Of a DNA stretch of 64,000 nucleotides, positions 36,367 to 56,864 are shown one piece after another. The stretch is from NCBI RefSeq assembly GCF_000315625.1, contig NW_005434607.1:377537-441536 (forward strand). Reading direction: 5' to 3'. The stretch's first letter is position 1; each line of letters begins with the position of its first letter. The notes below the pieces were generated by a model. It had not been told where the DNA came from and made no database searches. It saw only the letters and a program-made list of their open reading frames with translations. The stretch comes from Guillardia theta CCMP2712 (Eukaryota; Protista; Cryptophyta). The position numbers were made by a program, and so were the translations under genes.

Positions 36367-36398
<32 letters not shown>

Positions 36399-36590: not shown

Positions 36591-36982
36591 TGGCGATGCA
36601 AGTGATGATTGATGTATCTTGGTCATGTTTTCGCGGCGGAGCGCCAAGTTTCGCTCTGCGTCGCTGTTCAATATGGATGGACGGCCTTGTGAGAGTGTGC
36701 ATGTACTGGGCATCATCCATTCTCTCAGTCCACGTTTGTCTCGAGGAGTTGTATCGAATGATCTAGATCATTATGTTGTCCGTCGAACGATGCAATCTCT
36801 GTCCCAACACGAAGCTTCATACAGATACATATATTGGTTACCCGAGCTACAGTGCTCGTCACCGTGACTGCCGCCATGGATCTCACCCATGACCACATGA
36901 GCCGTCCATCCTCTGTAGCCGCTAGAGCTACTACAAGCTCTCCACTCTATCAGCCTACATCAACGTCACAGATTCCAGTCCC

Positions 36983-39130
36983 TTATGGTGTCGCCTCATC
37001 GCCTCCCTCCAGTTGCTCTTCACTCTGAGACCGTGCCTTGTCTACGAGCTGGATGCTGATCTCCGCTCCTTTTAGCCATGCCACGTCTTTCTTGGACAAG
37101 AACATCGCGTGCTGAGTAACGTTTTCCATCTGCTGCTTCTCCATCTCACTTGCTGTCTTGTCGTTGGTGAAAACCTGAGCTCCTCTCCAACGTGCTTTCC
37201 CCTCAAGCTCTGAGGGTAGAACAAACACAAGGCACACCCTCTCAAACTTGTTCTTGGCTCGTAGAGCTGTCAACATCCTACACAGTGGTCCAAGCTTGAT
37301 CGGGTGTTTTCCTGCTATCGTCATCTGGAACATGTAGAGGACCTCCTGATCTGACAATAAAAGCGCATCCACACAAGGGAAGTTCGATGCCTTGGGCTTG
37401 CAATATGTGTTCTCCATGATCTTCCACTCGTTGAGTCCTGTTGTAGAGAACTCAAACTATGCCTGCGACTTCTTCATACGCAAATCTATCTCTTCCCTTG
37501 CCCCTTCATCATCCTCACCCGACCCTAGACTGCGCAATCTGTATCTCCCTCCTTTCTTCAGCACCTCATGTGCCAAGCATTCAAAAACTAGAGCTGCCGC
37601 CCCATATCACCCAGAATCAGAGCCTGAGAAGGCAAGGTCTACAAGCCTATCCCGGTCTGTTTTGACAAGTCGGGCAAAGATCTTCTCCGCGGCTTTCTGC
37701 GAGCATGCTCGAGCGCTGATAGTCTTGTAGTCTGAGCTTGGGACCAGGTGAATCAGTCTCGATGGCATTCCCAGGTCTTCGTTCACTGCTGCTTGCATCT
37801 TTTCCTGTAGCGACGACAGTGAGGTTATCGTCTGTATCGCCTGCTCAAGTGTCCCTATAGGCCTCAATATGACATTCCTCGGTACGTTCCCCCAATCCTC
37901 GACGATATTCCTTGCTTCTTCTTCGTTCACGCGACCCCCTTGCATCTTGATGAAGATTGACATCTCCTCATCAGTCCATGTTGGCAGAAAGTATCGCCCC
38001 GCCCCATTGTTCAGAATGTCCTTGAACCCTCCAAGCTTGGGTGAAGACAGTATGATTGTCTTCGCCAAAATTGCTATCACGTAGCTCCCCAGGCCTTTGT
38101 ACAGGTCACAGATGTACCACCCCCGGAAATTGATGAGAAAGTTTACAACGACGGTCACATCTCCAAACTTACTCCATTCTGCCCCATCAAAGTACCAGTA
38201 ATTGGTTCCTACCTGATAGACTACTTCCTCATCAGAGCCGAGAAGCTGAAGAAGAAAGAAGTAGGCAAAGCATGACTTCCCTATCCCTGGACTCCCTGTG
38301 AGGATGACCTGCCCATTCTTCGGCGTCTCCGTGTCCAAGCGGAAGTACTCTGCAATCACCTGCTTCATCTCCAAGTAGCAATCTCGAAGGAACAGCTGAT
38401 TTCCGAAAACCTCATTCCCTCCCAAGAAGGTCGAGAAGCTCACAATCTCTTGAGCTGAGTAAGTCTTGCCCGCCCTCGCAACCTGGCAAAGCTCGTTCAA
38501 GAAGGACAGGAACATGTCGCCTATCAGCCCCGTCAGCGCCTTCAGTCGTCAAACTTGTGCACTGCTAGCATTACCTTGAGGTTTTGACAGGAAGTCTTCA
38601 GGCTTCTTTGAACCTTGAGTCTTCTTCTTCTCGATCAGGAGTAGATCGCGAAGCTGCTCCTCTTTCTTTAGAAGTCGATCCTCTTTCTTTAGAAGTCGAT
38701 CCTTTTCCTTGCGGAGCTGCTCCTCTTTCTTGCGCCAGTATTGCCGCTCGTCCTTGTCAGTGTCTGGATCGAGTGCACGTTTCTCTGCCTCTCTGATCTG
38801 TCGGCTGNNNNNNNNNNNNNNNNNNNNNNNNNNNNNNNNNNNNNNNNNNNNNNNNNNNNNNNNNNNNNNNNNNNNNNNNNNNNNNNNNNNNNNNNNNNNN
38901 NNNNNNNNNNNNNNNNNNNNNNNNNNNNNNNNNNNNNNNNNNNNNNNNNNNNNNNNNNNNNNNNNNNNNNNNNNNNNNNNNNNNNNNNNNNNNNNNNNNN
39001 NCATGTAGCTCGTGACAGCAGTCCTCCTCGGCCGGATGCATACATCGAGTGCGCAGGGGCAGAAGGCATGGATGGCAGGAAGGAGCATAAGGGCGGTGAG
39101 AGGCAGAGAGGGGCCACCGGTTCCTACCAT
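36983..39130 (-). pseudogene. Crinkler/RHS-type protein, copy 2
   Basis: Near-identical to copy 1. Same in-frame TGA (37607-37609) but the nuclease frame is intact (ENTYCKPKASNFPCVDA). Shorter C-terminus; N-gap in the header. Confidence 0.8.
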
Positions 39131-39297
39131 GGCGGGAGGTGCGCGATTGGGTAAGAGGAGTGTAGTACCCACCCTTACCTCTACGAAAGGCTCCATCCCT
39201 CTGATTGTGTACCCCTATTACCCCGTAGTTTCGGTAGCCCCACCACCCCCTCGAGTCCTCCGAAGCTCCAGAAGGCTGAGTAGTTGAGTAATCCCTA

Positions 39298-40090
39298 GCT
39301 ACCGGGAAAGGGCGACATAGAAATGTCCATGCGAGAAGCACCGTGTGGGTTTCAAGGTGAAGTCGACTGCCTGCGACAGTCAGCGATCGGACTGCCCGTG
39401 AGACTTGTTGATGGTGAACGCCAAGGACAGAAGAAAGGGGACTGAATTGGATCTGTGGCAACATGTCATGATAGTTGCCTCCGCCATGTTGCGATAGCTG
39501 AAGCCGGGTTCCATTACACAATTTGGGAGGTGACTAGCAGGATGGGAGCAGCGACCTTGAGCGAGAGCTCATGAGGAGGGAAACCACCCGGGCTGAGAGA
39601 GTCGGAGAAATTCCACAATGGGGAACTGGACTACTTCTTCCTGATCCATGACCGTGTATCAATTGAATGATACGTTCTAGGCGGAGTGGGAAGTCGTTGA
39701 AGGATTGCCGGGCTTACCTTAGGTGCGGCATTGTTGATCGGGCACTGAAAGGATTTCTTGCAGTGACAACGATGCCAAGCTCTGCACATTGTGTAGGAGA
39801 TCAGGGAAGACTTTTTCGACCAGTTCCTGTTGAGAATTGACCGAAGAACAAACATTTGGAGCAAGATCAATCATGCTGTCAACCCGGGGTCGGGAGTAGA
39901 TCCTCACCGACCATCAGTAGCCTGATCGCAAGCTCTTGTGCGTATACTTCCCCACTGAACGCAGCACGCATGTTTCTTCTGAGACTGAGGGGTTGAGCTC
40001 TGGTCCACAAAGACGAAGACTTGATTGACGCCTCAATCTCCGGTTTGACGAAAGTCACCTGCCCAAACAGCTAACACTCGGCCCATGGAG
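39298..40090 (-). mobile_element. Degenerate Helitron PIF1-helicase fragment (second copy)
   Basis: As 35090-35860, and additionally retains CFSHGHFYVALSR at about 39300-39342. Confidence 0.75.
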
Positions 40091-40229
40091 ACATCAAGTT
40101 GTTTGTTGAGACTACTGATCGGAGCTATATTCTTTCCTCAGCCTATGGCAAGCAGCTGATGTGGCTCGTTGCACAGGTGCTGGAAGGTTCATGGAGAGGA
40201 CAGCAGCCGCTGTGATAGGGGTTACCCGG

Positions 40230-40436
40230 AAGAAGAGCGACGGTGTGATGCAGGCCCACGAGGGCAAGACAAGTCTATCCATGCCAGAGTATAAAGCACT
40301 CCTCAACATCTTGAAGGAGGTGAGACCTCGCAGAGGAAGTTGAGAGTCCGGCAGCTCCTTTGATTTTCTCTTGGGCATGCTGTTCTGTCATGTGGAACCA
40401 GGTATGCAGAAGCGAGAGTCTAGCCTCGGACATTTC
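40230..40436 (+). mobile_element. Crypton-like tyrosine recombinase fragment (second copy)
   Basis: Matches 36000-36205. Confidence 0.45.
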
Positions 40437-40437
40437 A

Positions 40438-40578
40438 GATGATGATAATGATGATGATGATGATGATGAAGATGATGATGATGATGATGTTGTTGTTGTT
40501 GTTGAAGATGATGATGGTGATGATGAGGAGGAGGACGATGACGATGACGACGACGATGATGATGACGATGCAGATGAA

Positions 40579-40610
<32 letters not shown>

Positions 40611-40695
40611 CGATGATGATGACGATGATGATGATGTTGTTGTTGTTGTTGTTGTTGTTGAAGATGATGATGGTGATGATGAGGAGGAGGACGAT

Positions 40696-40727
<32 letters not shown>

Positions 40728-40925
40728 TGATGACGATGCAGATAATGATGATGATGATGATGATGATGATGAAGAAGAAGAAGAAGAAGAAGAAGAAGAA
40801 GAAGATGGAAATGACGATGTTGGTAGTAATTAGCCCGATGATGATGATGATGATGATGACGGAGGTAATCGAGGTAATGAAGGAGAACACGAAGAAGAAG
40901 AAGAAGAAGAAGATGGAGATGATGG
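40438..40925. repeat. Compound (GAT)/(GTT)/(GAC)/(GAA)n microsatellite, expanded relative to unit 1
   Basis: Direct reading. Confidence 0.9.
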
Positions 40926-41274
40926 CGATACAAGTGATGATTGATGTATCTTGGTCGTGTTTTCGCGGCGGAGCGCCAAGTTTCGCTCTGCGTCGCTGTT
41001 CAATATGGATGGACGGTCTTGTGAGAGTGTGCATGTGCTGGGCATCATCCATTCTCTCAGTCCACGTTTGTCTCGAGGAGTTGTATCGAATGATCTAGAT
41101 CATTATGTTGTCCGTCGAACGATGCAATCTCTGTCCCAACACGAAGCTTCATACAGATACATATATTGGTTACCCGAGCTACAGTGCTCGTCACCGTGAC
41201 TGCCGCCATGGATCTCACCCATGACCACATGAGCCGTCCATCCTCTGTAGCCGCTAGAGCTACTACAAGCTCTC

Positions 41275-41452
41275 ATTGTTCAGAATGTCCTTGAACCCTC
41301 CAAGCTTGGGTGAAGACAGTATGATTGTCTTCGCCAAACTTGCTATCACGTAGCTCCCCAGGCCTTTGTACAGGTCACAGATGTACCACCCCCGGAAATT
41401 GATGAGAAAGTTTACAACGACGGTCACATCTCCAAACTTACTCCATTCTGCC
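41275..41452 (-). pseudogene. Third, internally deleted Crinkler fragment
   Basis: Matches about 33800-33978 (copy-1 allele aaacttgc) and is fused directly to the unit start. Confidence 0.85.
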
Positions 41453-41570: not shown

Positions 41571-43199
41571 TTCCTTAAAATAACTAAATAGGAATCAGAT
41601 ACCTCAAACTGTCTGACAGATGCCGGACCAACCTTGTTCCATCTAGGGGACATATGGTACCAAAATAACCCCCCCCCCGGGGTCTAGAATTTTCAAGGTC
41701 CCCTCTACTAGGGGTGGTTCGGCATTAGAGAGTGGGAGCAAGGGGTTCTATGGTGTAACGGCTAGTGTAGAAGGAGGGGTGGGTTTAGTTAAGGCCAAAG
41801 GACGGTCCATCAAGGCTAAGGGGTAGTTTTGTGGGTCCGCCTCAGATTTATTCTTCTGGTGAAAGTTTGAGCAAAGTATCGCGTTGAAGTATGAGGGAGT
41901 TTAGGTGTTGATTTTAAGGTTTAGGGTGAAGTAGTCGAATGAGATTTCGTCCAAGGTTGAATGGAATGTGTTTCTGAAGTTTGACAAAGTTTGTTGAGTT
42001 TGTGTTTGGATGATTTGTGTGCAATGTTGAGGTTGCCATGAGGGCTTTGAGTTTGTAGTAATGTATTTGGATATCTGCATCTTCAATGAATGCCAAATAA
42101 TACCTTTGGAAAGCAGGGCATGATTTCACCAGGGTACTTGAACTTTTTAGTAGGGGTAGCACAAAAATTATGCTACTTATAAAAATGTTATATAATACAT
42201 GCAGGACAAACCATTAGTCCATTAGTTTTACTCAACGGAACCTCTAATTGCTTCTACCTGTTGAGGCAACTGATCGGCTGAGAGCCTGGCAAGCCTCACC
42301 TCAGGTCATGTCAAGCAGTCGATGTGGCTCTGTGCACAAGCGCACTGAAAGGACAGCAACTTGGCAGCTACAATAGGGACGACGTACGAGGATCATGGAA
42401 CCTCCAGGCTATGGGACTAGGACTCGGACCGGTCGAAGGATCATACCGCGGATACGAAGCGTAGAGTACCGGTAGTGGTAGTTCCTAGGACCAGGCATCC
42501 TCTCAGTCTATTTGAGGGATCGAGAGAGAGGAAGAGGGGCCGCTCGCATTTGCAGGAAAGGGAAAGGAGAATGAGGTGAAGGGTCTAAACAAGCTTGTAC
42601 ATCTGTACCACCTCTATTACTTCTCTGAATCCTGATATTATTCCTGCGCGGCCATCGGTGATCGCAAGTATCATCACTATAGATACTTCATCACTGTCTA
42701 CTTCGTGTGTATAATGATATCCCAGGTGATACACTAGCAAGTAAATACATTGGAAAACGTGAGGAGACAAACTTTTATAAATCAATTTAAAATTTCAATG
42801 ATTTTTACGAACACCCAAAAAATCTATTCATTCCTCTTTATTTTCCTTACCAAATCCCTATTATATTTTATTCAATTGAAATAATAGCTGCGCATTGGTG
42901 CGGATCATCACACAAAATAACCAAAAACAAACGAGCGCACACACGGAGTGTGCCAGAGCAAACATAATATCAATCAAAATTATGAATCCTTCAAGGATCA
43001 TATAAGTAATAAAAAAATCTATGTGGGGTGAAACCGCAAAATATTAAACACGTTGTTTTTGCGAACCCCCTCTAAGTAATTAATAAATTATATTATATTT
43101 TATTATATGTAAATCATAGCTGCACATTGCTGCGCATTATTACATGATATAACCAAATATAAACGAGCGTACCCACGGAGTGGGCCTGAACAAACATGC

Positions 43200-43460
43200 A
43201 AACCCTTGCAAAACCCTGCTAATCCTTGAAGCGTGGAGGGTTATTCAATTAATCATAAACCCTCCACTAAACCCTTCACTTCACAAATCATTACCAGAAT
43301 CATATATATTTAATTATTTATCTGTATATATAGACGACTGAGTGGAGGGTGTGGAGGGTGTGGTGGGTTTTTTTCTGAACTTCTCTCAGTTGATCGATCT
43401 TGGCCTATTAGTAATTGACCTCACAAACCCTCCAACCTTCCACACTCTCCATCCGCTCAA
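43200..43460. promoter_or_regulatory. Iteron-like inverted repeat cluster (GTGGAGGGT / ACCCTCCAC), candidate replication origin A
   Basis: gtggagggtgtggagggtgtggtggg faces aaaccctccaaccttccacactctcca; additional copies lie across an AT-rich core. Confidence 0.55.
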
Positions 43461-43579
43461 AAACCTACCCCCCGCCTACCCTCCGCCTACCTCCTTTTTA
43501 TTAAACCCCCTTTATCATTACCATTATTATACTAAATTATATTTTTTATTTTATTATTATCTATCTTTCTTTGTTATAA

Positions 43580-44032
43580 ATGAGCACTAGAAAAGGCAAC
43601 ACATGGATTCAAGCGCTGAAAGAGTTCAAGAAAGGTCATTCTGGCACTTGGTGCATTGTCAAGAAAGGATCAAAAGAATATGATCATGTTAAGGGGATCA
43701 TGCAAGATCTAAAAACTTATGACGGCAAATTACCAAATAAACAACATGCAAAACCTGTTAAACCTATGAAACAAGATATTGTCAATGCAAATCAGCAATA
43801 CAAGGATAAAGCGAGTGTTGGACCTAAACAAAAGAAAATGACAAAAAAAGAAAGATATGATAAAGCAATTAAATTAAAAGTTGGAGATATCAAAAGCAAT
43901 AATAAATGCCCCGTGTGTGATCATCAATTTGATAAAACACCATCAAAGAATGAATTTATTGCGCATGTGAATAGCGACAAACATAAGAAAGTATTGTCGA
44001 ATTCAAAATTTATGCTTGAATTTGATAAATAA
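43580..44032 (+). CDS. Small basic viral protein, NxWIxALK...WCxxKKG family, with a C-terminal C2H2-type zinc finger
   Basis: ORF conserved in relic B (49932-50378); CPVC...HVNSDKH; preceded by tatctatctttctttgttataa. Confidence 0.75.
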   Translation: MSTRKGNTWIQALKEFKKGHSGTWCIVKKGSKEYDHVKGIMQDLKTYDGKLPNKQHAKPVKPMKQDIVNANQQYKDKASVGPKQKKMTKKERYDKAIKLKVGDIKSNNKCPVCDHQFDKTPSKNEFIAHVNSDKHKKVLSNSKFMLEFDK

Positions 44033-44069
44033 ATATTTTATTATTTTTATCTATCTTTCTTTATTATAA

Positions 44070-44374
44070 ATGAGTAAAAAGAAGCTAATTCTTGGATTGA
44101 TGCCTTAAAGACTTATAATAAGGCACATTCTGGAGGAGATCAAGAAAAAGGCCTTTCTCTTGGTGGTGCTTGGTGTGTCCCAAGGAAAGGAACACCAGAA
44201 TATGAAGCTGTTAAAAATATTCACGACTACAAAATTAAAAAAACACCTTTGAAAGATGAAGATGCAAAACTTAAGAAAGAACACAAAGAAAGAGTGAAAT
44301 TTATATTAGGGTCTGATGTGGTCGGTGGCGGGAAGCTTAATGATGCACATAAAAAAATGCTGAATCATTTTTGA
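44070..44374 (+). pseudogene. Second paralogue of the NxWIxALK...WCxPxKG family, with a 1-nt deletion near the start
   Basis: atgagtaaaaagaagct here versus atgagtaaaaagaaagct in relic B. Confidence 0.75.
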
Positions 44375-44402
44375 TTCCCTAAAAAATAAAACTATTATTT
44401 AA

Positions 44403-44609
44403 ATGAGCAAAAAGAAAAATAATTCTTGGAAAGGATCGAATACTTGGTGCATACCAAAAAAAGGAAGTCGTCACATGGAAGCAGCTAAAAATATTAAATC
44501 ATATCTTGATCTTAGCGATGCAGATAAAAAGAAATATTTCAAAGTTTCCCCTGTTTCAAAAGAAGGCATAAAAATAATGACTGATAAGGTCAATGAACCA
44601 CACAATTAA
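44403..44609 (+). CDS. Third, shortened paralogue (NSW...TWCIPKKGS)
   Basis: Shares the motif with the two upstream ORFs. Confidence 0.6.
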   Translation: MSKKKNNSWKGSNTWCIPKKGSRHMEAAKNIKSYLDLSDADKKKYFKVSPVSKEGIKIMTDKVNEPHN

Positions 44610-44929
44610 AAAAGAAAGAAACTTATTATGATAAGGACGGGAAAAAAAGAACAAAAACATTCATTCAAGAATATAGACCTTATCAAGGCATATATTTGAA
44701 AGATGACATAGAAAATTATACAAAACTATTAATGAAAGGCAGCAAAAAATACTTTGGGGTCGGTCTTTCAAAAACAAAGAGAAAAAAAGAGTTTGGAATT
44801 CAAGATTTAGAACCTAATCAACAATATAAAAATAAGGTTGGACCTAACCCACAGAAAAATAAACCTAAAGATGATGGCTTAAAATTAGTTTCGATCAGTA
44901 AGGAAGATTTTGCAAAAATGAAATTTTAA
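44578..44929 (+). pseudogene. Lysine-rich viral ORF remnant
   Basis: ORF 44696-44929 has an extendable AT-rich upstream region and is followed by a hairpin. Confidence 0.35.
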
Positions 44930-46155
44930 ATGATCTTATTTTTGGTTTTTTATGTAAGGAAACATAAAACTACATAAGAAAAATAATTATCTATATATAT
45001 TATAAAGGATGAATCGCCAAAAAAGAAACCCTCAACCAGTCCAGAATCGGTTCAAACCTGAGAATTCAAAACCAAGCCAAAGGCACAAAAACCCAAGAAG
45101 CAACCAAAGCAACCAAAGCAAAATCGGCCAAAGCAAACACAGCCCAAGCCTGCACAAGCAAAGAGCTAATCGAATCACGATCCACCTCACTGGCCAGAAT
45201 CTATTTAACCCAAGATCCACCAAAGACTAACTCTCAGTACACCTGAGATCCTTACACCAACCTCATTCACCTCCTGAACGATACACAGCTGTGCAGTCTC
45301 TAACACCTTCACTGATGGTTGTAGAACTCTCAGAAGAACCACACAACACCACCAACACTTCCTTTATTCACAGCAACCACCTTCCCTTCAATCCCTTGCA
45401 ACCCAATCACAATGCACAGCGCTCTGGACACGTGTCCTCCTACCCCCCTCTTCACTGCCTGACCCTCAGGCTCGTCGATTCCTTAATTCCAGACCTATGT
45501 CAAAACCCACTTCCATCTCGCTGAGCTTCGTCCACCGATGAGACGCAATACCCTGAACTTCTCGCCGTCTCTAAGAACTTATCCGAGTTCTTACACCCTC
45601 CCTGACGAAGCTAAGCGAGATTCTCAGCTTCCTTTTCCATTTCATCCGTCATCCTCTGGAAACCCCTTTTTTCAAACATCTCCCTGCTCCGGAGGCTCCT
45701 CCAAGCTGCAACACCGCGCTCTCCTCCTCCAAGCTCAGCGGCTGTTTGACTTTTGTGTTTCATAGGACGAACGTCACGATATGAACCCCGAGAACGCATA
45801 TATCCTGATGGTTCTGAAACCGTTATCGAGTCATGTCTTTCAAATCGACATGCCAAAGCGAATTGACATCGTCGGCTCGATCCTGTCGAAAAGACGACTG
45901 CTTATGCACAGGACGTGACACGAATTTAGCAACTCGACAGATATGACAAGGAGACGCGACAATGCGTCGATTGTAAGTCACATATCTTATCCTCCTTCGC
46001 TTCAACTGCGCACCCTGGTGCACCTGCTCTCCTCCTCTGCGTCCGCACTGGCCCATTTCACCTGAGCACCTCCTCCGCTTGACTCAACCCTGTGGCACCT
46101 GCGCTCCTCCTCCGCTTGAGCTGCGGCCGCAGTGCGGTCGCACCCCGCCAACAGT

Positions 46156-46353
46156 GCACCTGCGCTGCTCCTCCACCTGAGCTGCGGCTGCTCCCCGCCA
46201 TTGCAGGGCCTGCGTTGCTCCTCCAGCGCTTACGCTTCAGCAGCACTCCTGCAGCACCTGCGCTGCTCCTCCACCTGCGCTCCGGCTGCTCCCCGCCATT
46301 GCAGGGCCTGCGCTGCTCCTCCAGCGCTTGCGCTTCAGCAGCACTCCTGCACC
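46156..46353. repeat. Two tandem GC-rich units of about 98 bp
   Basis: tgcgctgctcctccacctg...cagcactcctgca repeated at 46161 and 46259. Confidence 0.8.
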
Positions 46354-47110
46354 ACCTTGCACTCGGGCTCCTCAGCTTGTACCATCCGCATGCCACTAGA
46401 GACGCTCCTCATCCGCCTGCGCTGTCCGCATGCTCCTGTGCTCCTCCTCATCTTCCATCATAAACTCTTCCCTTCCAATCAAGCTCCAGAGATCAGGTTC
46501 AGAATTCTTGCAATGCATTGATTGATCTCTGATTGTTTTGAACACAATTTTCTCGTTTCTAATCTATGGGCCCTTTCTATCCTATCCACCCCGGGGATCA
46601 TTGTTTTGCCAAGGCACAAAATCATTTTGACGTTCAATTTCATCGTTCACTACCGTCATGGGTTCCATAGATCAGGATGAGCGAGTTTCTAAGATACTAA
46701 CCTAGAACAGATGTCTTGGTTGCAGCTAACCACAAGCTTGAGGAAGACGTGTCTGTCTTTATCCTCCTTCCGATTCATCCGATTCTTTCACGTTCTCCAT
46801 GAGAGTCTCCTCGGTGACATCACCCGAGACACCCTCCCTGAATCGGATAGAAGACGGAAGACTGATAGTTCTTGAGCAACACGGACTCGGTGGCAACGGT
46901 CCGAGACACCCTCCCTGACTCGGGTAACAGACGGAAGATAAAACCTGGAAGCCACCGCAGCAGGATCCGATCGGTTGAATCTCCCTGTCGGAGGCTGGAG
47001 CGGCGGATCACCGTCAACCACACACGGGGCATACAACTTTGACGGACGGCATGGGAACAGAGTAGCACTGTCACCGACAGAAGCGCAGAGAGCATGACAG
47101 GCGAGCATCC

Positions 47111-49690
47111 TCAGAGCAGCATATCAGGTAAGGGGCCTCCGAAAAGAAATTCACCAATGAGCCTCCACCGATTCAAAGGCAGAACTTTCGTCAGCAAATC
47201 ACCAGGCTGATAAGAAGTATGAATCTTTTCTGGATAGAGCTCGTCCTTTTCTACCAAATCAACAGCATACTTCGTTCGAATATCAATGTGCTTGAGTCGA
47301 CTGTAACTTCGCTTGTCCCACAAAAGCCTCAGACATGGTTCATTGTCGATTAGCAAGAGAGTAGGACGAGTCTGCATAAATCCCATCTGACCCAAGAGAT
47401 TTCTATAAAGCTTGACTAGTTTTGCGCATGTGGTGGCAGCATAAATTTCAGCTTCTGAAGAACTCAGGGCAACAACCTTCTGCATTTTGGATCCAAAGAC
47501 GACTACCCCACCATTCAGAACGATTCCATATCCGCTTTGACTCCGTCTCGTGATAATCTCGGTACCCCAACCAGCATCACTGAATGCAATCATCTCATTG
47601 ACAAAACACTCCTGGTGGTAAGAGACACCGTGACAATGGTATACAATCTGAACCTCCCGAGTAGTGTAAAGGTACTGTAGAAGATGAATTAAGGCATCCA
47701 AATCGCACTGCCGAGGAGCACGAGCAAAGCGACTAAGGACGCTCGTTGCGAATGCGATATCAACCCGCGTACAATGTGCCACGTAGAGAATGGACCCCAG
47801 GAGACTCTGATAAGTGCGGACTTCCTTCTTGTTCAACAACTTACCCTCCAAGTGATAAGTCTTGAGATAGTGACCAGGTAATACCGTTTTGACGCCCCTG
47901 GCAACTATTTCAAAGCGTTCAACAATCTTTTCAATGAAATGCTGTTATGACAAAGTTATCCGACCCTGATCGTCATTCTGTTCGATGCGAATGCCCAAGA
48001 AGGTACCTGTTGCCTCACTCCCCGAAAAGTCGAAGACTGTGTTGAGCTTCTCAAGAAACTCAATCTTAACTGCTTCAGTTTGAGAGACAATGAGTAAGTC
48101 ATCCACGAAGACAGTCAGAAGCAAGACAGTTGGAGTATCGGTAGATGATCTCATCATGTCCTATCCCACTTGCTCCCACCGTCTTCAACACCTGCGTGAA
48201 CTTAAGATACCATCTCCTAGGTGCAATGCGAAGTCCATAGAGCGACTTCAAGACTTTGAGGAGGCACTCAGGAGGAAGACTCATGATATCTGGAGGAATC
48301 AAATACACAGGAACCTCCAAGTCACCATACAAGAAAGCAGCAGAGATATCCCTGAATGTGATTCTCCAACGAAGTTGCCTGCCGCGATGCTCAGCAAGAG
48401 CCGGATATTGTCCAACGATGTAGTCGGTGCAAACAATTCTTCAGATGAAGGGAGTAAGTTGCCCATGATAACTAGCCGCCCCTTTCGTTTCAAGATCTTG
48501 CCCTTCAAGTCTCGTTTTGAAGCATACACCCACAAGCCGCGAGCAAGGACAGAATGATTTGACTCCCTGTTTTTCTGATCACGCGTAACAACTTCCCAGA
48601 CGCCTCGACTTTCGATCTTCGCAATTTCCTCCTTTTCAGCCTGCTCCCAAAGATGCCATAACATCTCTGACCTTGTCTTGGGATCTGGTAACTTGTCAAA
48701 ACTACTTTCGTTCTCCACATTTCCTGCATCGCAAGCCGCTGTCATTGCGTAATCTGCCTGACTCAGGCCTCTCTCAGGCATTGCAGCTGGATTGTCACGG
48801 TCGGAAGACATCAGAGATAACAAGTCAGACGCCAGCTCCACCGCGTCCCGGATGATACGGGAGAGACCAACGCTAGATTCGCCACAAGAAGACGCGTATC
48901 CCTGAAAGTAGAGTCCACATCAGCACTGACCTGTGGGGCAGATGACACAGGATCGACATGCTGTAAACGAGTTTTGTACATCTCATCCCTCCATACTGGA
49001 ACAAAACGCGGGCATACTGGCTGACTGCCTGTCATGTTATCATCCGCCCTGTCCCAAACATACAAGATTTCTTCAGACTCAGTCGACCCGTGCACTATAT
49101 TTGTTACTGGCATGCAGGTACTGCGGAAATTGCTTGTGCTGTGAGAGTACAACAACTTCAGGTGATCCACCCACTGTAGCTTCGACAACATCCATGATCT
49201 CATCCGCTGCCCGGTCAAGGTAGGTTTTGAACACTTTTGTATGGTCGGACATATCACCAAAGACGTTCGGTGGAAAGCTGCACGAATAACCACTGTTTTC
49301 GCCTGACCCCGAGGATCTCTTCTTGCCCACTGCAACTTCTCCGACAGCCTGCTGTTCATTCCGTACCAACGGTTCACTTGCCACAGTGATATTCACCACT
49401 GACACGTCTCCCTTCGCATCCATCGCAGGCGTCACGGTCGTAGTCGTCTTGCTTCTAGTTTTTAAGATGCGCCCCCAGTGGAATATTTCGTCGAGAGAAA
49501 TCTTTTCTGGTCTCATATTACTCTTCTTCCAATTTCGCAATTCTCTATTCAATGCCAATGACTGCAACGATTCACAAGTCGATTCTTTACACCTGGCATG
49601 CAAGAGTTCTGCTATCTGGATCTCTAACGGTCCCATTCTTTGGTGTGCTCCCACAACACCTTGAATACTATCCTTGAGATTCTTAATATG
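47111..49690 (-). mobile_element. Decayed Ty1/Copia pol (RT + RNase H; integrase core missing)
   Basis: RT: KRKGRLVIMGN...FAPT, LKSLYGLRIAPRRWY, TVFVDDLLI. RNase H: FSDAGW...RRSQSGY...VALSSSEAE...IDN...KHIDIR...GDLLTK. Several frameshifts. Confidence 0.9.
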
Positions 49691-49894
49691 AAGTTTTGCG
49701 TCTTCATCTTTCAAAGGTGTTTTTTTAATTTTGTATTCGTGAATATTACGAACAGCTTTATATTCTGGTGTTCCTTTCCTTGGGACACACCAAGCAGCAC
49801 CAAGAGAAAGGCCTTTTTCTTGATCTCCTCCAGAATGCGCCTTATTATAAGTCTTTAAGGCATCAATCCAAGAATTAGCTTTCTTTTTACTCAT
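49690..49894 (-). pseudogene. Truncated paralogue 2 (MSKKKANSWIDALK...WCVPRKG) fused in frame to Copia-derived sequence
   Basis: Homology to 44070-44270 stops after DEDAKL; the ORF reads on to 49079 in GC-richer DNA. Confidence 0.7.
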
Positions 49895-49931
49895 TTATAA
49901 TAAAGAAAGATAGATAAAAAAAATAAAATAT

Positions 49932-50378
49932 TTATTTATCAAATTCAAGCATGAATTTCAAATTTGACAATACTTTCTTATGTTTGTCGCTATTCACATG
50001 TGCCTTAAATTCATCCTTTGATGGTGTTTTATCAAATTGATGATCACACACGGGGCATTTATTATTAGTTTTGATATCTCCAACTTTTAATTTAATTGCT
50101 TTATCATATCTTTCTTTGTTTGTCATTTTCTTTTGTTTAGGTCCAACACTCGCTTTATCCTTGTATTGCTGATTTGCATTGATAAGTTTCTTAGGTTTGA
50201 CAGGTTTTGCATATTGCTTATGTGGAATATTACCATCATATGTTTTTAGATCTTGCATGATTCCCTTGACATGGTCATATTCTTTTGATCCTTTCTTGAC
50301 AACACACCAAGTGCCAGAATGACCTTTATTGAACTCTTTCAGCGCTTGAATCCATGTGTTGCCTTTTCTAGTACTCAT
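49932..50378 (-). CDS. Small basic viral protein with a zinc finger (homologue of 43580-44032)
   Basis: Intact 148-aa ORF, mostly conservative differences from copy A. Confidence 0.75.
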   Translation of the reverse strand: MSTRKGNTWIQALKEFNKGHSGTWCVVKKGSKEYDHVKGIMQDLKTYDGNIPHKQYAKPVKPKKLINANQQYKDKASVGPKQKKMTNKERYDKAIKLKVGDIKTNNKCPVCDHQFDKTPSKDEFKAHVNSDKHKKVLSNLKFMLEFDK

Positions 50379-50464
50379 TTATAATAAAGAAAGATAGATA
50401 ATAAAAAAAAAAGAATATAATTTAGTATAATAATGGTAATGGTTGCCCCCTGCGACGGACAGAG

Positions 50465-50705
50465 GGTGTTTTTTGGGGTGTAAGGTATGTAGGGTTGGAG
50501 GGTTTCCTGAAACTTTTGTTATATATATAAATTTGGTGGATTCCAAAACTTAGTTTCAAACCCTACATACCCTACATACCCTACATATGGACGTGTATAT
50601 ATACAGATAAATAATAAATATATGCTCTACATTAATAATAATATAATATATGTAGGGTTTTATGTAGGGTTTGTTATTAATGTAGGGTTTATGTAAGGTT
50701 TGCAA
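50465..50705. promoter_or_regulatory. Iteron-like inverted repeat cluster (ATGTAGGGT / ACCCTACAT), candidate replication origin B
   Basis: accctacataccctacataccctacat faces tgtaaggtatgtagggttggagggttt; four more tgtagggttt-like copies lie beyond the AT-rich core. Confidence 0.6.
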
Positions 50706-51057
50706 AACAACGTGTTTAATATTTTACCCCCTCACCCCACATAGATTTTTTTATTACTTATATGATCCTTGAAGGATTCATAATTTTCATTAATATTATG
50801 TTTGCTCTGGCACACTCCGTGTGTGCGCTCGTTTGTTTTTGGTTATTTTGTGTGATAATCCGCACCAATGCGCAGCTATTATTTCAATTGAATAAAATAT
50901 AATAGGGATTCGGTAGGGAAAATAAAGAGGAATAAATGAATTTTTTGGGTGGTCGTAAAAATCATCGAAATTTTAAATTGATTTATAAAAGTTTGTCTAA
51001 TCACGTTTACAATGTATTTAGTTGCTAGCATATAAGAAATCTTTATCCAAAAATGAA

Positions 51058-51455
51058 ATGATCCAGATCAAACAAGAAAAAGGATTCACTGACCCACAAC
51101 CTGCGGCCGCTGAAACAATCAGGATTAAACAAGAACCAACCGATGAGATCCAACCACAACCTACGCTGCGCTTGGCTTCGCCAACGATAAGGCAACCAAA
51201 TAAACCACCTATAAAAGATCCTAGAATTAGCGAGAGAGCAAGGCAAAAGAAATATTATGATAAGAAGAAAGCCGATATATTAGAAAGAAAAAACAGCAAT
51301 ACGAAGATAATAAGGACAAAATAACAGCTCGAAAGATAGTTAAACGATTGAATGATATCATTTCAACCGGTGGCACTGCCAAGCCTACAGCCGCAAGCAT
51401 GGCAACATACCAACTATACAAAGAAGGCAACACATGGAAGAGCCGGACAATCTAA
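51058..51455 (+). pseudogene. Basic viral ORF, frameshifted in an A-run near 51290
   Basis: RQKKYYDKKKADILERK continues in another frame as QQYEDNKDKITARKIVKRLN...WKSRTI*. Confidence 0.5.
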
Positions 51456-51542
51456 TTTATATAAAAATGATTTGATTATTTTTAATATATATAAGTAAAA
51501 TAAACTTTCTCACTTATATATAAAGTTGAAACATACCCAACT

Positions 51543-51743
51543 ATGACCAAGGCACAGGCTCGCTATTACAAGAAGAGATTTAACAACGATGAAGAATTCC
51601 ACGACAAAGAATGCAAGAGAGTATGCGAATTTAGAAAAACCCGATATGCAAATGATGAGGAATATAGAAACATGATCAAACAAAAGGCCCTTGAATATTA
51701 TTATAGGAAGAAGGCAGAAAGAGAGAATCAATCATCTAATTAA
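51543..51743 (+). CDS. Small basic helical viral protein
   Basis: 66 aa with repeated RY.NDEE(F/Y) motifs; followed by a hairpin. Confidence 0.6.
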   Translation: MTKAQARYYKKRFNNDEEFHDKECKRVCEFRKTRYANDEEYRNMIKQKALEYYYRKKAERENQSSN

Positions 51744-51847
51744 TGCAGTGATACAGTCTTTTTTTATTTTTTTACTGTTATAATGGTAACAAAAATAAAT
51801 TGCAAGGATTTTTCCGATTTTTGATAAAAAATGATATAAAGTAAAAA

Positions 51848-53308
51848 ATGAATATAAGTAATAAAAAAATCTCAACTATAATTAAAAGGATGACTTTTCG
51901 CTTGCCTTCTGCAACTTATGAAATTCAAGGTGCTATTCAAGACTATGAATATATTAGGCATGATTTAGAGTTCAAATGTGTCCCCCTCTATCCTCAAGAT
52001 CCAAATGATAGGGACAACAAGGAGTTTGAATCTGACATGATCATTAAAAAAACATATGCCCTTGCTGCTGGCTGGAACGATACAAAAAAACACAACAAAG
52101 AGACATTCAAGATCTGGCACAAATTAATTGATAACAAAATAAACAACAATAAAGGCGTTCTTTATGCTGTTCTTACTGGAAAGATCAATAATATCACGGT
52201 CATTGATCTTGATATTTTAAAGGCTGAGAACAGGAATGAAGAATTTGAAAACTTGGTGCAATCTGCTGAAACCTTTCAAGTCTCAACACCAAAAGGCGAA
52301 CATCACTATTTCCTATATTGTCCATATTTGAAAAATAAAATTGGCTTTCTTGGTTATATTGATATCCTCAATGATACAAAATGCGTCATTGGTGCGGGGA
52401 CACTCCGTGATGATGGATTTTATAGCATTCTTGAAGAAAATGAGTTAAAACCCATCTCAAAAGCATTGTTTGATTTTATCCCAGATAATTTAAAAAATGA
52501 TTTTGAAAAAGATTATTACAAGCTTATGAATAATGCGGTATTTGGTAAGACTATGGAGAATGTAAGAAACCGTGTTCAGGTCAAACTACCAACTACATTA
52601 AAGAAGGCTCAAAAATATACAAACTCACCTAATTGTACTAAGTGGGAAATTATAGACGAAAACATGCCTTTAGTTTCCTTGAAAGAAAAAAATGTAAAAC
52701 TAGATAAACCTATTTATGCCGGTTTCTCTATATTAGACTTGTCAAAATATTTAATGTATGACTTCTATTATAATATAATGAAACCTAAGTATGGTCAAAA
52801 TCTTAAGCTTCTAGCAACTGATACCGATAGCTTCTTCTTTGCTGTGTATACAGAAGACCTTTATAAAGATATTTGGGATATGCGCGAACATTTTGATATG
52901 AGCGAATACAGCAAAGAGAACCCATTATATGATGAAACAAATAAAAAGGTTATTGGAAAATTTAAGGATGAATTAGGGGATAATATTATGAGCGAATTCA
53001 TAGGAGTACGACCTAAATGTTATTCTTATAAGAAACATAGCATTAAAGACGGATATAAAAATATAAAGAAATTAAAGGGTGTTCCTTCTTCAATTGTAAA
53101 AACAGATATAAAACACGAAGACTATGATAAATGCGTTAGTGAAAATAAGCCCCTTTCTTGTAAGGTACATGGTATTCGAAGCTCAAAGCTTCAAAATTAC
53201 GCAATACAACAGGTTAAAACAGCTTTGAGTAATACAGATGATAAAAGATACTGGGATTTATCTTTAGGTTATCAAAGTCTAGCATTAGGACACAGGGATA
53301 TAAAATAA
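51848..53308 (+). CDS. In-frame fusion of a bifunctional primase-polymerase (Prim-Pol) domain and the C-terminal half of a protein-primed family B DNA polymerase
   Basis: Prim-Pol: AVLTGKINNITVIDLD...VSTPKGEHHYF...IDILND..CVIG. pPolB: KLMNNAVFGKTMENVR, KPIYAGFSILDLSK, ATDTDS, GKFKDE, RPKCYS, KGV, DDKRY. No exonuclease motifs and no motif A. True start may be 51889. Confidence 0.85.
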   Translation: MNISNKKISTIIKRMTFRLPSATYEIQGAIQDYEYIRHDLEFKCVPLYPQDPNDRDNKEFESDMIIKKTYALAAGWNDTKKHNKETFKIWHKLIDNKINNNKGVLYAVLTGKINNITVIDLDILKAENRNEEFENLVQSAETFQVSTPKGEHHYFLYCPYLKNKIGFLGYIDILNDTKCVIGAGTLRDDGFYSILEENELKPISKALFDFIPDNLKNDFEKDYYKLMNNAVFGKTMENVRNRVQVKLPTTLKKAQKYTNSPNCTKWEIIDENMPLVSLKEKNVKLDKPIYAGFSILDLSKYLMYDFYYNIMKPKYGQNLKLLATDTDSFFFAVYTEDLYKDIWDMREHFDMSEYSKENPLYDETNKKVIGKFKDELGDNIMSEFIGVRPKCYSYKKHSIKDGYKNIKKLKGVPSSIVKTDIKHEDYDKCVSENKPLSCKVHGIRSSKLQNYAIQQVKTALSNTDDKRYWDLSLGYQSLALGHRDIK

Positions 53309-53535
53309 ATTCTAATGCGTATTTTTGGGAGGGTACGCATAAGATACACACAGAGACAATGCGGGAAATTTTTTCAAAGCAAACACATCATAACTTTTAA
53401 TTTTTTTCTCATTTTTTCACACCATAACATTAAGCTTTTGAAAATATTTACGTTACACATCAAATATTCTAAAAAGCTCACCATTATGATGCTAAAAACT
53501 TCACTTGGAGTGAAACCGCAAAATACTTAACACAC

Positions 53536-56500
53536 CCCCTTGTGGTCGGCCGCTGTCGCCAGCGCCTTCCCGCCTGCAGCCAGCAGCAGGTCGAAGGTGC
53601 CAAACTCTCCCCGGTCGCTGGCCCAGTGAGCGCAGGTCTTGCCGTCGCAGTCAGGGGCGAGGAGGACCTGAGGGCCGGCGAGGTCGACGATCTTCGAGAG
53701 GATCGGGACGTCACCGCGATAGGCAGCCCAGTGGGCGCAGGTCCGGCCGTCAGCGTCCGCCGCCTCCACAACCTCCCTGCCTCCCACCTCGATGAGCATG
53801 TCCAGCGCCTTCACTTCTCCCCATTCAGCTGCGATCAGAGCGCATGTCAAGCCCTTCCTGTCCGCTGCTATCGCCAGCTCCCTCCCGCCACTCTCCAGCA
53901 GCAGCTCGAGGGTGTCAAATTTCTCGCGCACTACAGCATGGTGAGCTGGGGTTCTGCTGAACTGATCCACATCATGAACGATCGCATCCCCTCCAACGTC
54001 CAGCAGCATTCGAAGAGCCTCCAGGTCTCCTCTGTCCGCGGCGATATGCGCGCATGTCAAACCCTCACAGTCCGCTGCTCGAGCGGCTCCCATGCCCCCG
54101 TGGCTCAGGAGGGTTTTCAGCACGTCGAGTCTTCCAGTCCTCGCGGCCCAGTGAGCGCACGTCCTCCCCTCCCGGTCAGCCGATGAGGCAAGACAGGCTC
54201 CTCCTACCCTCAGCACGAGCTGTAACAGTTCCTCGTCCTGCAGATCGGCGGCTGCATAGAAGATGTCAGCGAGGATGCTGCTCTGAGAAGTCTCAGCGGC
54301 GAGATCCAACGCTGTCTTCCCGTCCTCTCGCTGCGCCACCACCGCGTCCCGCAAGCTCCTCCCCTCGACGAGGAGGTGAAAGACTTCGACGTGGCCCCTG
54401 CTGCATGCGAGGTGGACGGCAGTCGCTCCTGCTGCATCCTTGAGGTCAACGTTGGCCTTGTGCAGCAGCAGGAGCTTCACGCACTTGTCGTATCCCATCA
54501 AGGAAGCAGACTGCAAGGCTGTCTTCCCGTCCTTGTCAACCGCATCCACCTCCTTCCCAGCTGCCAGCAGCCTCTCCATCCCCTGGATGTCTCCACTTGC
54601 CGCCGCCGACGCCAACGGCGATTCTCTCGTCTCCATGACGTCACCAATGGCCTCGAGCATGCGCGAGCGCTCGAAGATCTGGTCGGACAACCTCGCCTTC
54701 TCCTCTCCTGCCGTCTCGCTGCTGCCTGCCCGCGAGTTAAGGAGAGCGATAATGTGTCTCCCTACGACGACGAGGGAGTCCTGGTTGTACCAGTCCCTCT
54801 CCCTCACGCAGTGATCGAACTTGTCAGCGCACATGGCAGCGAGGTAGACAGCAAGCTGCATGGCGCTTGCGTAGTTCTTCTCGTTGTTGAACCAAACATC
54901 ATCTCTGCTCAGGTAGATCTCCACGACTCTCTCGCAGTCTGCCTGAGTCTGCAGCCGAAGGGAGTCCACCTGCCCGACTTGGAGCGAGGAGTCTTGGCTG
55001 AGAACCTCCTGCATCTTCACCTGCAACATCCTCCTCACGTCCTCCTCAACATTCCTCATCACAGCGACGTAGAGGTTCTTCCGTCGGGAGATCATGTCTT
55101 CGATGGTTGAGCACGACGAGTTCGTGCTGATCTTGGTCGGCACTACCCGAACGAGGAGCTGGACCACCTTCCCTTCCTCCAACGCATACTTGACCAGCTC
55201 CACCCGCGGCTTCCCCACGACCTCAAGGTACGAGAGGGGAGGATACAAGATCTCGTCCTCTCCTGGGTACTGTGAGAGAAACCGCAGGGAAGCCCCACGA
55301 TCGACTGCTCCGCAGGAGATTTCGAAGAGCGTCGGAGCTTGTCCCTTCAGGTACTGGATCGCCACCTCCTTGTTCAAGGTCACGCTCATCATGCCATACT
55401 CCACCCCCCCCGTAATGAGAAACTCGTCTTCCTGCAGAAATGCCCGAGGGAGCGCAACCCCTCCCAGCCCGCGGAAGAGGAGGCGGCTCCTTGGGAGGGG
55501 CATAAAACTTGATAGCTTGATGATGCCGCTGACGATACAGAAGAGGGTCGTGGGGTACTTGTTGCCTCTCAGCTCCTTCACTGTCTCAGCAGGGAACCCA
55601 CGTAGGACCGCGTTGTACTTGAGGTACATGGGTCCTGCAAGAAAAACTCTATCACGATCTGGGAGATTGCGGCGTAGGGAGGAGGGAAGTGGGAGGAGGG
55701 ATTGGGGGGGAGGAGAAGTGAGCAAGGGGATGGGTGAGGGGGTGGGGCATGAAGGGAGAGCCAAGTAGGAGAAGTGGAGGAGGACGATGGGGAAGAGGAC
55801 GAGGAGGAGTACGCGTAGGAGTAAGCATCTTACCAGTATAGAGGATGAGAGCAATTATCTCTTCCTTTCTCAGTTTTGCCCTCACCACCGCCTCCTCGCC
55901 CATCAGCTGCTCTACACTCCTCACGATCCTCTTCCCCTGGCACGCCTTGACTCGCTCCTCCTCCTCTGTGACCGCCCTCCACTCCTGAGCAGGAGAGGTC
56001 TCGAGCAGGTAGTTGGGCGTCCTGAATGTGTCCCTCGAGTCTGCCCTCTCGCAGTGCTCCTGCTGCATCCCATCGTAGAAGTTGAGCATGGGATACCCTA
56101 TCCTCTCCAGCAGCCCCTTGTGGAACTCCTCCAGTTTTCCGAATTCTGCGACGCAGAACTTGTCGTTGATCGGCTCGCTGGCGCCCTCAAGGAGGCGGGA
56201 GGCTTCCTCCTCGGCCTGCAGGAGGTTCTTCAAGCTCAAGAAGCTCTCCGCCAGCCTCGACGCCACCACACCCTGGCACCACATCGCCACGTCCTCCAAG
56301 GATGAGCTCTGCAGGAACTGTAAGGGGTTGTCAGGGGATCCCTCGGGGATGCACTCGGCCAAGGTCCTGATGACGTCAGCTTGCGAGGACTTCGCCAGGA
56401 AGCTCTGCTTGCTCAGCACCTCCCACTCCCTACAGATTGATCCACAGAACTCCTCGAACGTAGACGACGAACGTCGCCTGTCCACAAACACATCCGAGCT

Positions 56501-56864
56501 CAGCCCGAGCTGCATCGGGATCTCTCCGCATTCTTCGTGGAAAACTCCGAGGTCGTTGGCGATCGCGGAAGGGGAAGGAGAGGAGGAGGTCTTATCAAAG
56601 AAAGCACGCAAGCGCACAGCTTGCTCAGGGCTCAGCTTCCAAGCACTGCCCCCCTTCATCTCGTGCCTCTTGGAGGGGGCTTCTGAACTCGTCACTGAAA
56701 ACTTCCCATGGCGCCCCTTGTCGAATTCGTCCACCTGGCAGTTTCATGTCAAATCACCCAAACACTCGAAATTGCTCCACCTTGCTCGCCCTGCTGTTGG
56801 GAGCTTTGGTAACATTCGCATCTTGATCTGGAATAATCGATTGGACCGATGATCCACAGCCCAT
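53536..56864 (-). pseudogene. ADP-ribosyltransferase-ankyrin gene, copy B, 3'-truncated at the viral relic
   Basis: Near-identical to copy A. Full R-S-E catalytic core visible (LFRG, MMSVT, QYPGEDEILY). Frame ends DHKGVC* at 53527, just inside the viral DNA. Confidence 0.85.

What the first reader, a model, noticed from the sequence alone, without database searches (positions are those of the whole stretch)
42733..53535. Two related endogenous virophage/Polinton-like viruses with giant-virus-style expression signals
Seen: AT-rich intronless blocks. Several ORFs are preceded by an AT-flanked TATCTA about 15-16 nt before the ATG (before 43580, 44070 and 45009, and in relic B before 50378 and 49894). 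Established: an AT-flanked TCTA shortly upstream of the start is the late promoter shared by CroV and its virophage mavirus, which also encodes pPolB. Inference: these elements are transcribed by a co-infecting giant virus, implying a host-integrated antiviral parasite system. No capsid, packaging ATPase or integrase gene is visible in this window.
Basis: partly seen in the sequence, partly recalled or inferred. Interest (0 to 1): 0.8.

Follow-up and report, generated by a model that had tools for sequence, protein, structure and literature searches.

The report
Virophage-like relics with a probable origin
Two broken copies of a small DNA virus sit in this alga's genome; the proposed giant-virus promoter is mostly one duplicated sequence, but both copies keep a repeat array that related virus-parasitising viruses carry next to their helicase gene and that is likely their DNA-copying start site.

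Summary
The two AT-rich, intronless blocks are real (42734 to about 45230; 49691-53535). They are about 93% identical in inverted orientation and are separated by copia retrotransposon remains. Both are decayed: the single 'polymerase' ORF is a deletion fusing a primase start to the end of a Polinton group-2-like pPolB, a class the papers separate from mavirus polymerases. TATCTA lies before all five named ATGs, but four are copies of one promoter. Collapsed, it is 2 of 7 starts (P 0.02-0.29) and the closest orthologue lacks it, so a CroV-style code is not shown here. Two other features tie the relics to virophages. First, the small basic genes carry an unnamed 40-residue domain found in Sputnik-capsid virophages and in giant viruses. 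Second, both relics keep an inverted TG(T/G)AGGGT array: 23 of 61 viral contigs holding it encode a virophage capsid, and in 22 of 31 with an SF3 helicase it follows that gene, the layout of SaPI origins. No capsid gene is in the window, and the genes are nearly silent in one RNA set. Verdict: ordinary relics of a known kind, plus a testable candidate virophage origin.

The parts
42734..45230 (+). Relic A (left end cut against a high-copy repeat; right end approximate)
   Evidence: GC profile and self-BLAST; depth steps in X1
42734..43067 (.). Non-coding block, 93% identical to 50697-51028 inverted; holds a copy of the 28-nt motif found at relic B's right end (43025-43051)
43234..43434 (.). 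Array of 5 TGGAGGGT/ACCCTCCA octamers in both orientations around an AT-rich core; candidate replication origin
43558..43563 (+). TATCTA before gene A1
43580..44032 (+). Gene A1, 150 aa basic protein: WxxALKxxN-WCxPKKG domain plus weak C2H2-like zinc finger
44048..44053 (+). TATCTA before gene A2 (duplicate of the A1 upstream region)
44070..44374 (+). Gene A2, paralogue with the same domain, frameshifted near its start
44403..44609 (+). Gene A3, third paralogue; lacks part of the domain and is truncated relative to P0130; no TCTA
44597..44929 (+). Basic ORF without known family; 5 RNA molecules end at 44934
44988..44993 (+). TATCTA before 45009, the only site independent of the duplicated promoter
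45009..45230 (+). K/P/Q-rich ORF, probably a real but damaged gene
45231..49690 (-). Copia-type retrotransposon remains (RT at about 47945-48800, RNase H-like ORF 47111-47944, high-copy LTR-like part near 45100-45900); limits approximate
   Evidence: RVT_2 hits; depth about 900-4000 in X1; RNase H label from recalled motifs
49691..49894 (-). Gene B2, orthologue of A2, cut at 49691 and read on into the retrotransposon
49911..49916 (-). TATCTA before B2
49932..50378 (-). Gene B1, orthologue of A1 (dS 0.22, dN/dS 0.20)
50395..50400 (-). TATCTA before B1
50488..50688 (.). Array of 8 TG(T/G)AGGGT/ACCCTACA octamers in both orientations; candidate replication origin
50697..51028 (.). Non-coding block homologous to 42734-43067
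51058..51743 (+). Two to three small basic ORFs (51058-51324, 51264-51455, 51543-51743), no family; no TCTA
51848..53308 (+). Deletion chimera: Prim-Pol primase N-terminus (start probably 51890; 63% to P0123) joined at about 52495 to the last 271 aa of a pPolB (85% to P0002/P0274)
   Evidence: junction bridged by an X2 contig
53506..53535 (+). Right end of relic B; 28-nt motif repeated at 43025 and, degenerate and inverted, at 50712-50739
53536..55629 (-). Host ART-domain/ankyrin gene cut by relic B at 53535; uninterrupted paralogue at 26654

Best explanation
The two blocks are decayed, inverted copies of one multi-copy family of integrated small DNA virus, likely of virophage ancestry, whose conserved control element is an inverted TG(T/G)AGGGT array that likely served as the helicase-loading origin, while the TCTA is one duplicated promoter that is not shown to be a giant-virus late signal. 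Shown: homology, purifying selection between the copies, the deletion that fused primase to polymerase, the cut host gene, the retrotransposon between the copies, and the co-occurrence of the array with virophage capsids and SF3 helicase 3' ends in public viral contigs. Inferred: an SF3 primase-helicase bound the octamers and melted the AT-rich spacer, as SaPI Rep does; in this lineage the helicase gene that precedes the array in relative L001 was replaced by another replication module (Prim-Pol/D5 helicase plus group-2-like pPolB); the small basic proteins were virion or core proteins; and the intact ancestor needed a giant virus for transcription, as virophages do. These two copies can neither replicate nor make particles on their own.
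For: 93% inverted homology with dN/dS 0.20. ORF 51848: residues 15-216 are 63% identical to a 938-aa Prim-Pol/PriCT_2/helicase, residues 216-486 are 85% identical to a pPolB that continues at least 327 aa upstream and holds the motif A region missing here. Domain family: 1192 clusters at 50% identity; 4 of 17 scanned carrier loci encode Sputnik-type MCP and none hit the Polinton DJR model; structural matches to Yellowstone Lake virophage 5 and Klosneuvirus proteins (40-51% identity, rmsd under 1, but E above 0.001). Array: 13 octamers in the two blocks vs mean 0.16 (max 3) in 2000 shuffles, conserved in L001 (10 octamers). 23 of 61 viral contigs with the triple repeat encode virophage MCP, 28 of 61 MCP or virophage ATPase (15 distinct clusters); the array is within 700 nt after the helicase 3' end in 22 of 31, and has an inverted partner in 50 of 61. 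L001 begins with a peptide matching the C-terminus of those helicases (E 7e-7 in a two-sequence search). SaPI origins have this layout (10.64898/2026.10.17.759575, passages).
Against: No capsid gene in the window and no whole genome to search, so virophage versus PLV is indirect. The polymerase class occurs with both Polinton DJR capsids (4 of 17 loci scanned) and Sputnik-type capsids (2 of 17), and the window's own clade has no fetched genomic context. Published cryptophyte elements are PLVs and no virophage MCP was found in them (PMC12220804). None of the 67 array loci carries the small-protein domain, and 47 of the 48 earlier loci, virophages among them, lack the array. In the window no helicase gene lies upstream of the array in the expected position, and P0123's helicase does not match the array-associated helicase profile. 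No control pattern could be scanned. The array also occurs beside D5-type helicases (L094, L113) and on a few PLV-like or phage contigs, so it is not virophage-specific.
Confidence: 0.62

Rival explanations
1. The relics come from an ordinary cryptophyte Polinton-like virus (PLV capsid), which picked up the small-protein genes and the array by module exchange with virophages.
For: PLVs are the only capsid type reported in cryptophytes, including three complete and two partial ones in Guillardia theta, with AEP-S3H replicases and group-2-like polymerases (PMC12220804 sections 4 and 11; PMC4642659). The polymerase class mostly travels with rve integrase (11 of 17 loci) and DJR capsids. Two array contigs look PLV-like (L085, L087).
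Against: Every identified capsid beside the small-protein domain or the array is Sputnik-type, apart from one NCLDV capsid on a GC-rich contig; no array locus hit the three DJR queries.
Confidence: 0.3
2. One reading: TCTA is a CroV/mavirus-type late promoter, and the family is an inducible antiviral parasite read by a CroV-like giant virus.
For: TCTA is at -19/-20 before small basic, probably late-type genes and absent before the replication genes, which instead have AAAAATGA at -46 to -80. Relatives show some excess: 16 of 134 starts vs 7.1 (base shuffle) or 9.9 (dinucleotide shuffle, P 0.04) in small-virus carriers of the domain, and 30 of 177 vs 16.9 in array-bearing virophages. The genes are nearly silent in X21.
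Against: 2 of 7 independent starts, P 0.02-0.29. L001 has CATATG-TTTCTTT in place of TATCTA-TCTTTCTTT. An X6 contig of depth 40 keeps TATCTTTCTTTTATTATAAATG without TCTA, and a CCTA variant is in X1 and X6. 3 of 36 family-gene starts in relatives have it. TCTA is reported only for CroV and ChlorV (PMC13196603) and only type 4 of eight EMALE types (PMC8547959). AAAAATGA is not individually significant (P 0.04-0.22).
Confidence: 0.25
3. A and B are the two long terminal inverted repeats of a single element (42734-51028) with a retrotransposon nested inside, and 51029-53535 is a neighbour.
For: The homologous arms are inverted and end at matching points.
Against: The arms differ by 7% with dN/dS 0.20 and are rearranged in the middle, which means divergence under selection rather than decay of identical repeats; no target-site duplication is visible at those ends.
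Confidence: 0.08
4. The arrangement is partly an assembly artefact of repeats.
For: All parts are multi-copy; no listed contig spans the junctions at 49690 or 53535 (table cut).
Against: The primase/polymerase junction is bridged by an X2 contig (51844-52567; X2 may be the source data), and the relic sequences are present in several runs.
Confidence: 0.1

Closest known systems
Endogenous PLVs of cryptophytes, including Guillardia theta elements 1-3 (PMC4642659; PMC12220804)
   Same: AT-rich integrated element, AEP/Prim-Pol primase-helicase, group-2-like pPolB. The window's chimeric protein is itself a row (Guith551649387) in the polymerase alignment of PMC4642659's supplement.
   Different: No capsid module left; that row is a primase/polymerase deletion chimera rather than a whole polymerase; the accessory genes and array point to Sputnik-capsid virophages, which were not found in cryptophytes.
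Mavirus and type-4 EMALEs of Cafeteria burkhardae (PMC8547959)
   Same: Host-integrated, AT-rich, primase-helicase next to pPolB, TCTA before some genes, retrotransposon inside or between copies.
   Different: TCTA not enriched or conserved; polymerase of another class; no rve integrase, MV genes or capsid seen; the retroelement is copia, not Ngaro.
Freshwater Sputnik-capsid virophages with SF3 helicase and OLV11-like tyrosine recombinase (L056, L068, L090, L103, L115; YSLV5)
   Same: The TG(T/G)AGGGT inverted array, or the WxxALKxxN-WCxPKKG domain.
   Different: They are free contigs with capsid genes; the array follows their helicase gene, whereas here a different replication module lies beside it.
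SaPI iteron origin bound by the SF3 PriRep helicase (10.64898/2026.10.17.759575)
   Same: Short iterons in inverted sets around an AT-rich spacer, downstream of an SF3 primase-helicase gene (in the relatives).
   Different: Different iteron word, eukaryotic viruses, and no binding data here.

Membership tests
Mavirus/EMALE type 4 | Positioned TCTA late promoter enriched before ORFs | tested here: inconclusive
   Present at -19/-20 but only 2 of 7 independent starts, P 0.02-0.29; lost in the closest orthologue
Mavirus/EMALE type 4 | Mavirus-type pPolB | tested here: not met
   Relatives are about 1250-1300 aa with an endonuclease VII-like insert; PMC4642659 and PMC12220804 place this class apart from mavirus polymerases. 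No mavirus sequence was in my own tree.
Mavirus/EMALE type 4 | rve integrase, long TIRs and target-site duplication | tested here: inconclusive
   None seen, but both copies are truncated and the other half of the cut host gene is not beside the relics
Mavirus/EMALE type 4 | Reactivation by CroV | not testable with these tools
   No infected-cell RNA available
Virophages (Maveriviricetes) | Virophage MCP, penton, ATPase, cysteine protease | tested here: inconclusive
   Absent from the window; genome not held; present beside the shared domain (4 of 17 loci) and the shared array (23 of 61 contigs)
Polinton-like viruses | PgVV- or GKS-type MCP with A32 ATPase | tested here: inconclusive
   Absent from the window; no close complete relative found in IMG/VR
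Polintons | Intact pPolB with exonuclease and polymerase motifs | tested here: not met
   Only the last 271 aa remain; motif A region and exonuclease lost
Polintons | rve integrase and 6-bp TSD | tested here: inconclusive
   Not in window; 11 of 17 scanned loci with this polymerase class have rve
SaPI-type iteron origin | Inverted iteron sets flanking an AT-rich spacer | tested here: met
   A, B and L001; 50 of 61 viral contigs (loose partner pattern)
SaPI-type iteron origin | Located just downstream of an SF3 primase-helicase gene | tested here: inconclusive
   Not so in the window; met in L001 (tail only) and 22 of 31 contigs
SaPI-type iteron origin | Bound and melted by the helicase; required for replication | not testable with these tools
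   Needs binding and replication assays

The most novel reading that the evidence does not exclude
These are the first traces of a true Sputnik-capsid virophage lineage integrated in a cryptophyte, and they expose a shared TG(T/G)AGGGT iteron origin used by at least 15 distinct freshwater virophages, plus an unnamed N-terminal tag that virophages share with tandem giant-virus gene arrays and may use to enter the giant virus's particle or factory.
Probability: 0.3. Interest if true: 0.72.

Novelty: new member of a known kind. Interest (0 to 1): 0.42.

Why it matters
Integrated PLV/virophage relics are common in protists, and this pair cannot defend its host, so the finding as posed is ordinary. 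Two by-products matter more. In four searches of the held library I found no paper that defines a virophage replication origin by sequence; the array gives a precise target for a helicase-binding test and a non-coding marker that pulls virophages out of a phage-dominated collection. A virophage in a cryptophyte would also give a host for freshwater virophages known only from metagenomes. The chimeric ORF has entered a published polymerase alignment as if whole, which is worth correcting.

Tried and rejected
No whole genome was held, so complete copies could not be searched. IMG/VR scans with the polymerase half, gene B1, the L002 homologue and P0123 found no relatives, and a long array-plus-core pattern found 0. 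The pattern was mis-specified and means nothing. PDB sequence searches gave 0 hits; Foldseek on PDB gave none at E 0.001 or better; Pfam and NCBIfam have no model for the small domain (43 proteins; 30 members); the ESM Atlas gave only 0.76. No RNA holder was listed. The 413-417 aa ORF of L027/L028/L030 stayed unidentified. Rejected: a natural primase-polymerase fusion (both parents continue far beyond the junction); a single element with 1.5-kb TIRs (dN/dS 0.20); five independent promoters. Contig depth is summed over overlapping contigs and was not used as a copy number, only as a sign of multi-copy. No complex prediction was run.
Full report
Observation. The window has two AT-rich blocks, A (42734 to about 45230) and B (49691-53535), in a host of about 50% GC. 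They share 758 nt at 93% and 334 nt at 93% in inverted orientation. Between them lies a copia retrotransposon on the minus strand (RVT_2, E 5.5e-10), much deeper than the relics in DNA run X1. B's right end cuts a host ART/ankyrin gene at 53535; an uninterrupted paralogue lies at 26654. The first gene pair has dS 0.22 and dN/dS 0.20, so A and B diverged as working viruses and are not the two repeats of one element. The host is a cryptophyte: the window's chimeric protein is row Guith551649387 in the polymerase alignment of PMC4642659's supplement, where related labels denote Guillardia theta.

Decay. The 486-aa ORF at 51848 is not a polymerase gene. Residues 15-216 are 63% identical to the start of P0123, a 938-aa Prim-Pol/PriCT_2/helicase, and residues 216-486 are 85% identical to the end of a pPolB that runs at least 327 aa further upstream. 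An X2 contig bridges the junction (X2 may be the source data). A2 is frameshifted, A3 has lost part of its domain, and B2 is cut by the retrotransposon. The polymerase belongs to the long class with an endonuclease VII-like insert. In 17 of the 23 fetched loci that I scanned, this class sits with Polinton DJR capsids (4), Sputnik-type capsids (2) and rve integrase (11). The window's sequence falls in a 19-row clade (100/99) with no fetched context (49 rows, no mavirus row). PMC4642659 (section 7) and PMC12220804 (section 11) separate Polinton group 2 and G. theta polymerases from mavirus-type ones.

The promoter. Counting 7 independent starts and T at -11..-22 (a window based on the recalled CroV range and widened to include the observed sites), 2 of 7 have it: P 0.022, 0.082 and 0.29 under three nulls. 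The closest orthologue, L001 (78% identical), lacks it. In lake run X6 a contig of depth 40 keeps TATCTTTCTTTTATTATAAATG without TCTA, and a CCTA variant appears in X1 and X6, though the deepest X1 contig there keeps TCTA. Of 36 family-gene starts in relatives 3 have it (starts are first-Met calls). So some related virophages use a TCTA-like signal, but this family is not shown to. TCTA as the CroV late motif, shared with mavirus and type-4 EMALEs, is confirmed in PMC5294985, PMC8547959 and PMC13196603; the primary CroV and mavirus papers were not read.

Expression. In RNA set X21 (about 6% read, reads up to 60 nt, strain not known) depth over the viral ORFs is 0-0.23, against 287-361 over the LTR-like part. 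There are traces: 5 molecules end at 44934, just after ORF 44597-44929, and depth is 3 at 53101-53500. This argues against strong constitutive transcription, but no single-copy host gene served as control and no infected sample exists.

The small genes. All five carry a 40-residue WxxALKxxN-WCxPKKGxxEY domain, N-terminal in 133 of 149 top hits and found in 1192 clusters, with no Pfam, NCBIfam or PDB match. A relative's model is two helices (pLDDT 79-90 over residues 1-40); its best viral matches are uncharacterised proteins of Klosneuvirus, Yellowstone Lake virophage 5 and Feldmannia species virus (E 0.014-0.9). Of 22 IMG/VR carrier loci, 10 are named as giant-virus bins. In 17 scanned (107 ORFs), 4 encode Sputnik-type MCP, 4 others an A32 ATPase, and 4 giant-virus markers such as TFIIB, MutS or Rpb2; in giant viruses the domain heads tandem kinase-like or HMG genes. 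A virion or core role is my inference from basicity and context.

The array. About 150-350 nt upstream of A1 and B1 lie octamers TG(T/G)AGGGT in both orientations, with one triple at 9-nt spacing and a conserved AT-rich core: 5 in A, 8 in B, 10 in L001, 0 in the other 4.6 kb of the blocks, against 0.16 expected. All five of A's copies are the GG variant. A scan of IMG/VR for the triple returned 67 loci on 61 contigs. Of these 23 encode virophage MCP by tblastn (6 confirmed by Pfam among the 52 ORFs scanned), and 28 encode MCP or virophage ATPase, collapsing to 15 clusters. An SF3 helicase is in the fetched DNA of 31, and in 22 the array lies within 700 nt after its 3' end; 50 of 61 have an inverted partner by a loose pattern. 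The helicase profile was built from 19 array-adjacent genes and two D5-type genes were added by hand. L001 starts with a peptide matching those helicases' C-terminus. Virophages are a very small share of IMG/VR (my knowledge), so the enrichment is large, but no control pattern could be scanned, and about a dozen mostly GC-rich contigs show no virophage gene. SaPI origins have inverted iterons around an AT-rich spacer downstream of an SF3 PriRep that binds them (10.64898/2026.10.17.759575). In the window the helicase gene is not in that position; a different module lies beside the array, bounded by a 28-nt imperfect inverted repeat, which fits the replicon-replacement model of PMC11296320. That swap is inferred.

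Comparison and verdict. Endogenous PLVs are well known in cryptophytes, with no virophage MCP found (PMC12220804); PMC10120064 lists virophage MCPs in other protists. The relics are a new member of a known kind. The promoter claim is unproven. The array and the shared domain are the parts worth following; searches found no paper on this array, in a library that lacks most subscription journals.

Papers seen: PMC12220804 (abstract, passages, section 4 part 1 of 5, section 11); PMC4642659 (passages, sections 5 and 7, term searches in supplements; tree placement of the window's row not seen); PMC11296320 (passages, end of section 9); passages only for PMC8547959, PMC5294985, PMC13196603, PMC12747079, PMC10120064, 10.1101/2022.07.28.501842, 10.1101/2023.08.22.554363 and 10.64898/2026.10.17.759575. 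Supplements of PMC12220804 and PMC10120064, not read, may list complete copies of this family.

Noticed in passing
window 53506-53535, 43025-43051, 50712-50739: A 28-nt motif at relic B's true right end recurs almost exactly inside A and, degenerate and inverted, at 50712-50739, so the primase/polymerase module is bounded by short imperfect inverted repeats ending in GTGT(GT); could be protein-primed termini or an attachment site. No match in the 115 loci.
   Followed up: partly
L037 6635-17168, L036 8361-14138, L039, L041, L042: In giant-virus bins the 40-residue domain heads tandem arrays of up to seven 100-570 aa genes, several with kinase-like or HMG domains; it behaves like a portable N-terminal tag.
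   Followed up: partly
window 45101-45900: The LTR-like part is heavily covered by RNA reads whose first mates lie on the minus strand only (depth 287-361); sequence differences show they come from other copies.
   Followed up: no
window 26654-30638 and 53536-57588: The ART/ankyrin host locus is duplicated at 98-99.6% identity; only the second copy is cut.
   Followed up: partly
window 32710-41452: Tandem duplication of a unit with an NTPase gene (weak nSTAND3 hit; Crinkler/RHS-like by recall) and an acidic GAT-repeat tract, with a third 179-nt fragment.
   Followed up: no
window 53315-53340: A stable hairpin (-13 kcal/mol) directly follows the polymerase stop codon; an X6 contig has a similar ACGCATAA just upstream of a family gene, a weak hint that the two genes are adjacent in another variant.
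   Followed up: partly
window 51463, 51827, 51844: AAAAATGA, close to the mimivirid early motif AAAATTGA, lies 46-80 nt before the replication-side ATGs; not significant singly.
   Followed up: yes
window 42859-42965 and 43091-43197: A 107-nt direct duplication (81%) in relic A that B lacks.
   Followed up: no
L002 1-15405: A 23.8-kb metagenome contig with the family gene, a virophage-like ATPase, a tyrosine-recombinase-like ORF (label recalled) and three DNA methylases.
   Followed up: partly
window 42301-42733: High-copy repeat (X1 depth about 990) abutting relic A's left end; not identified.
   Followed up: no
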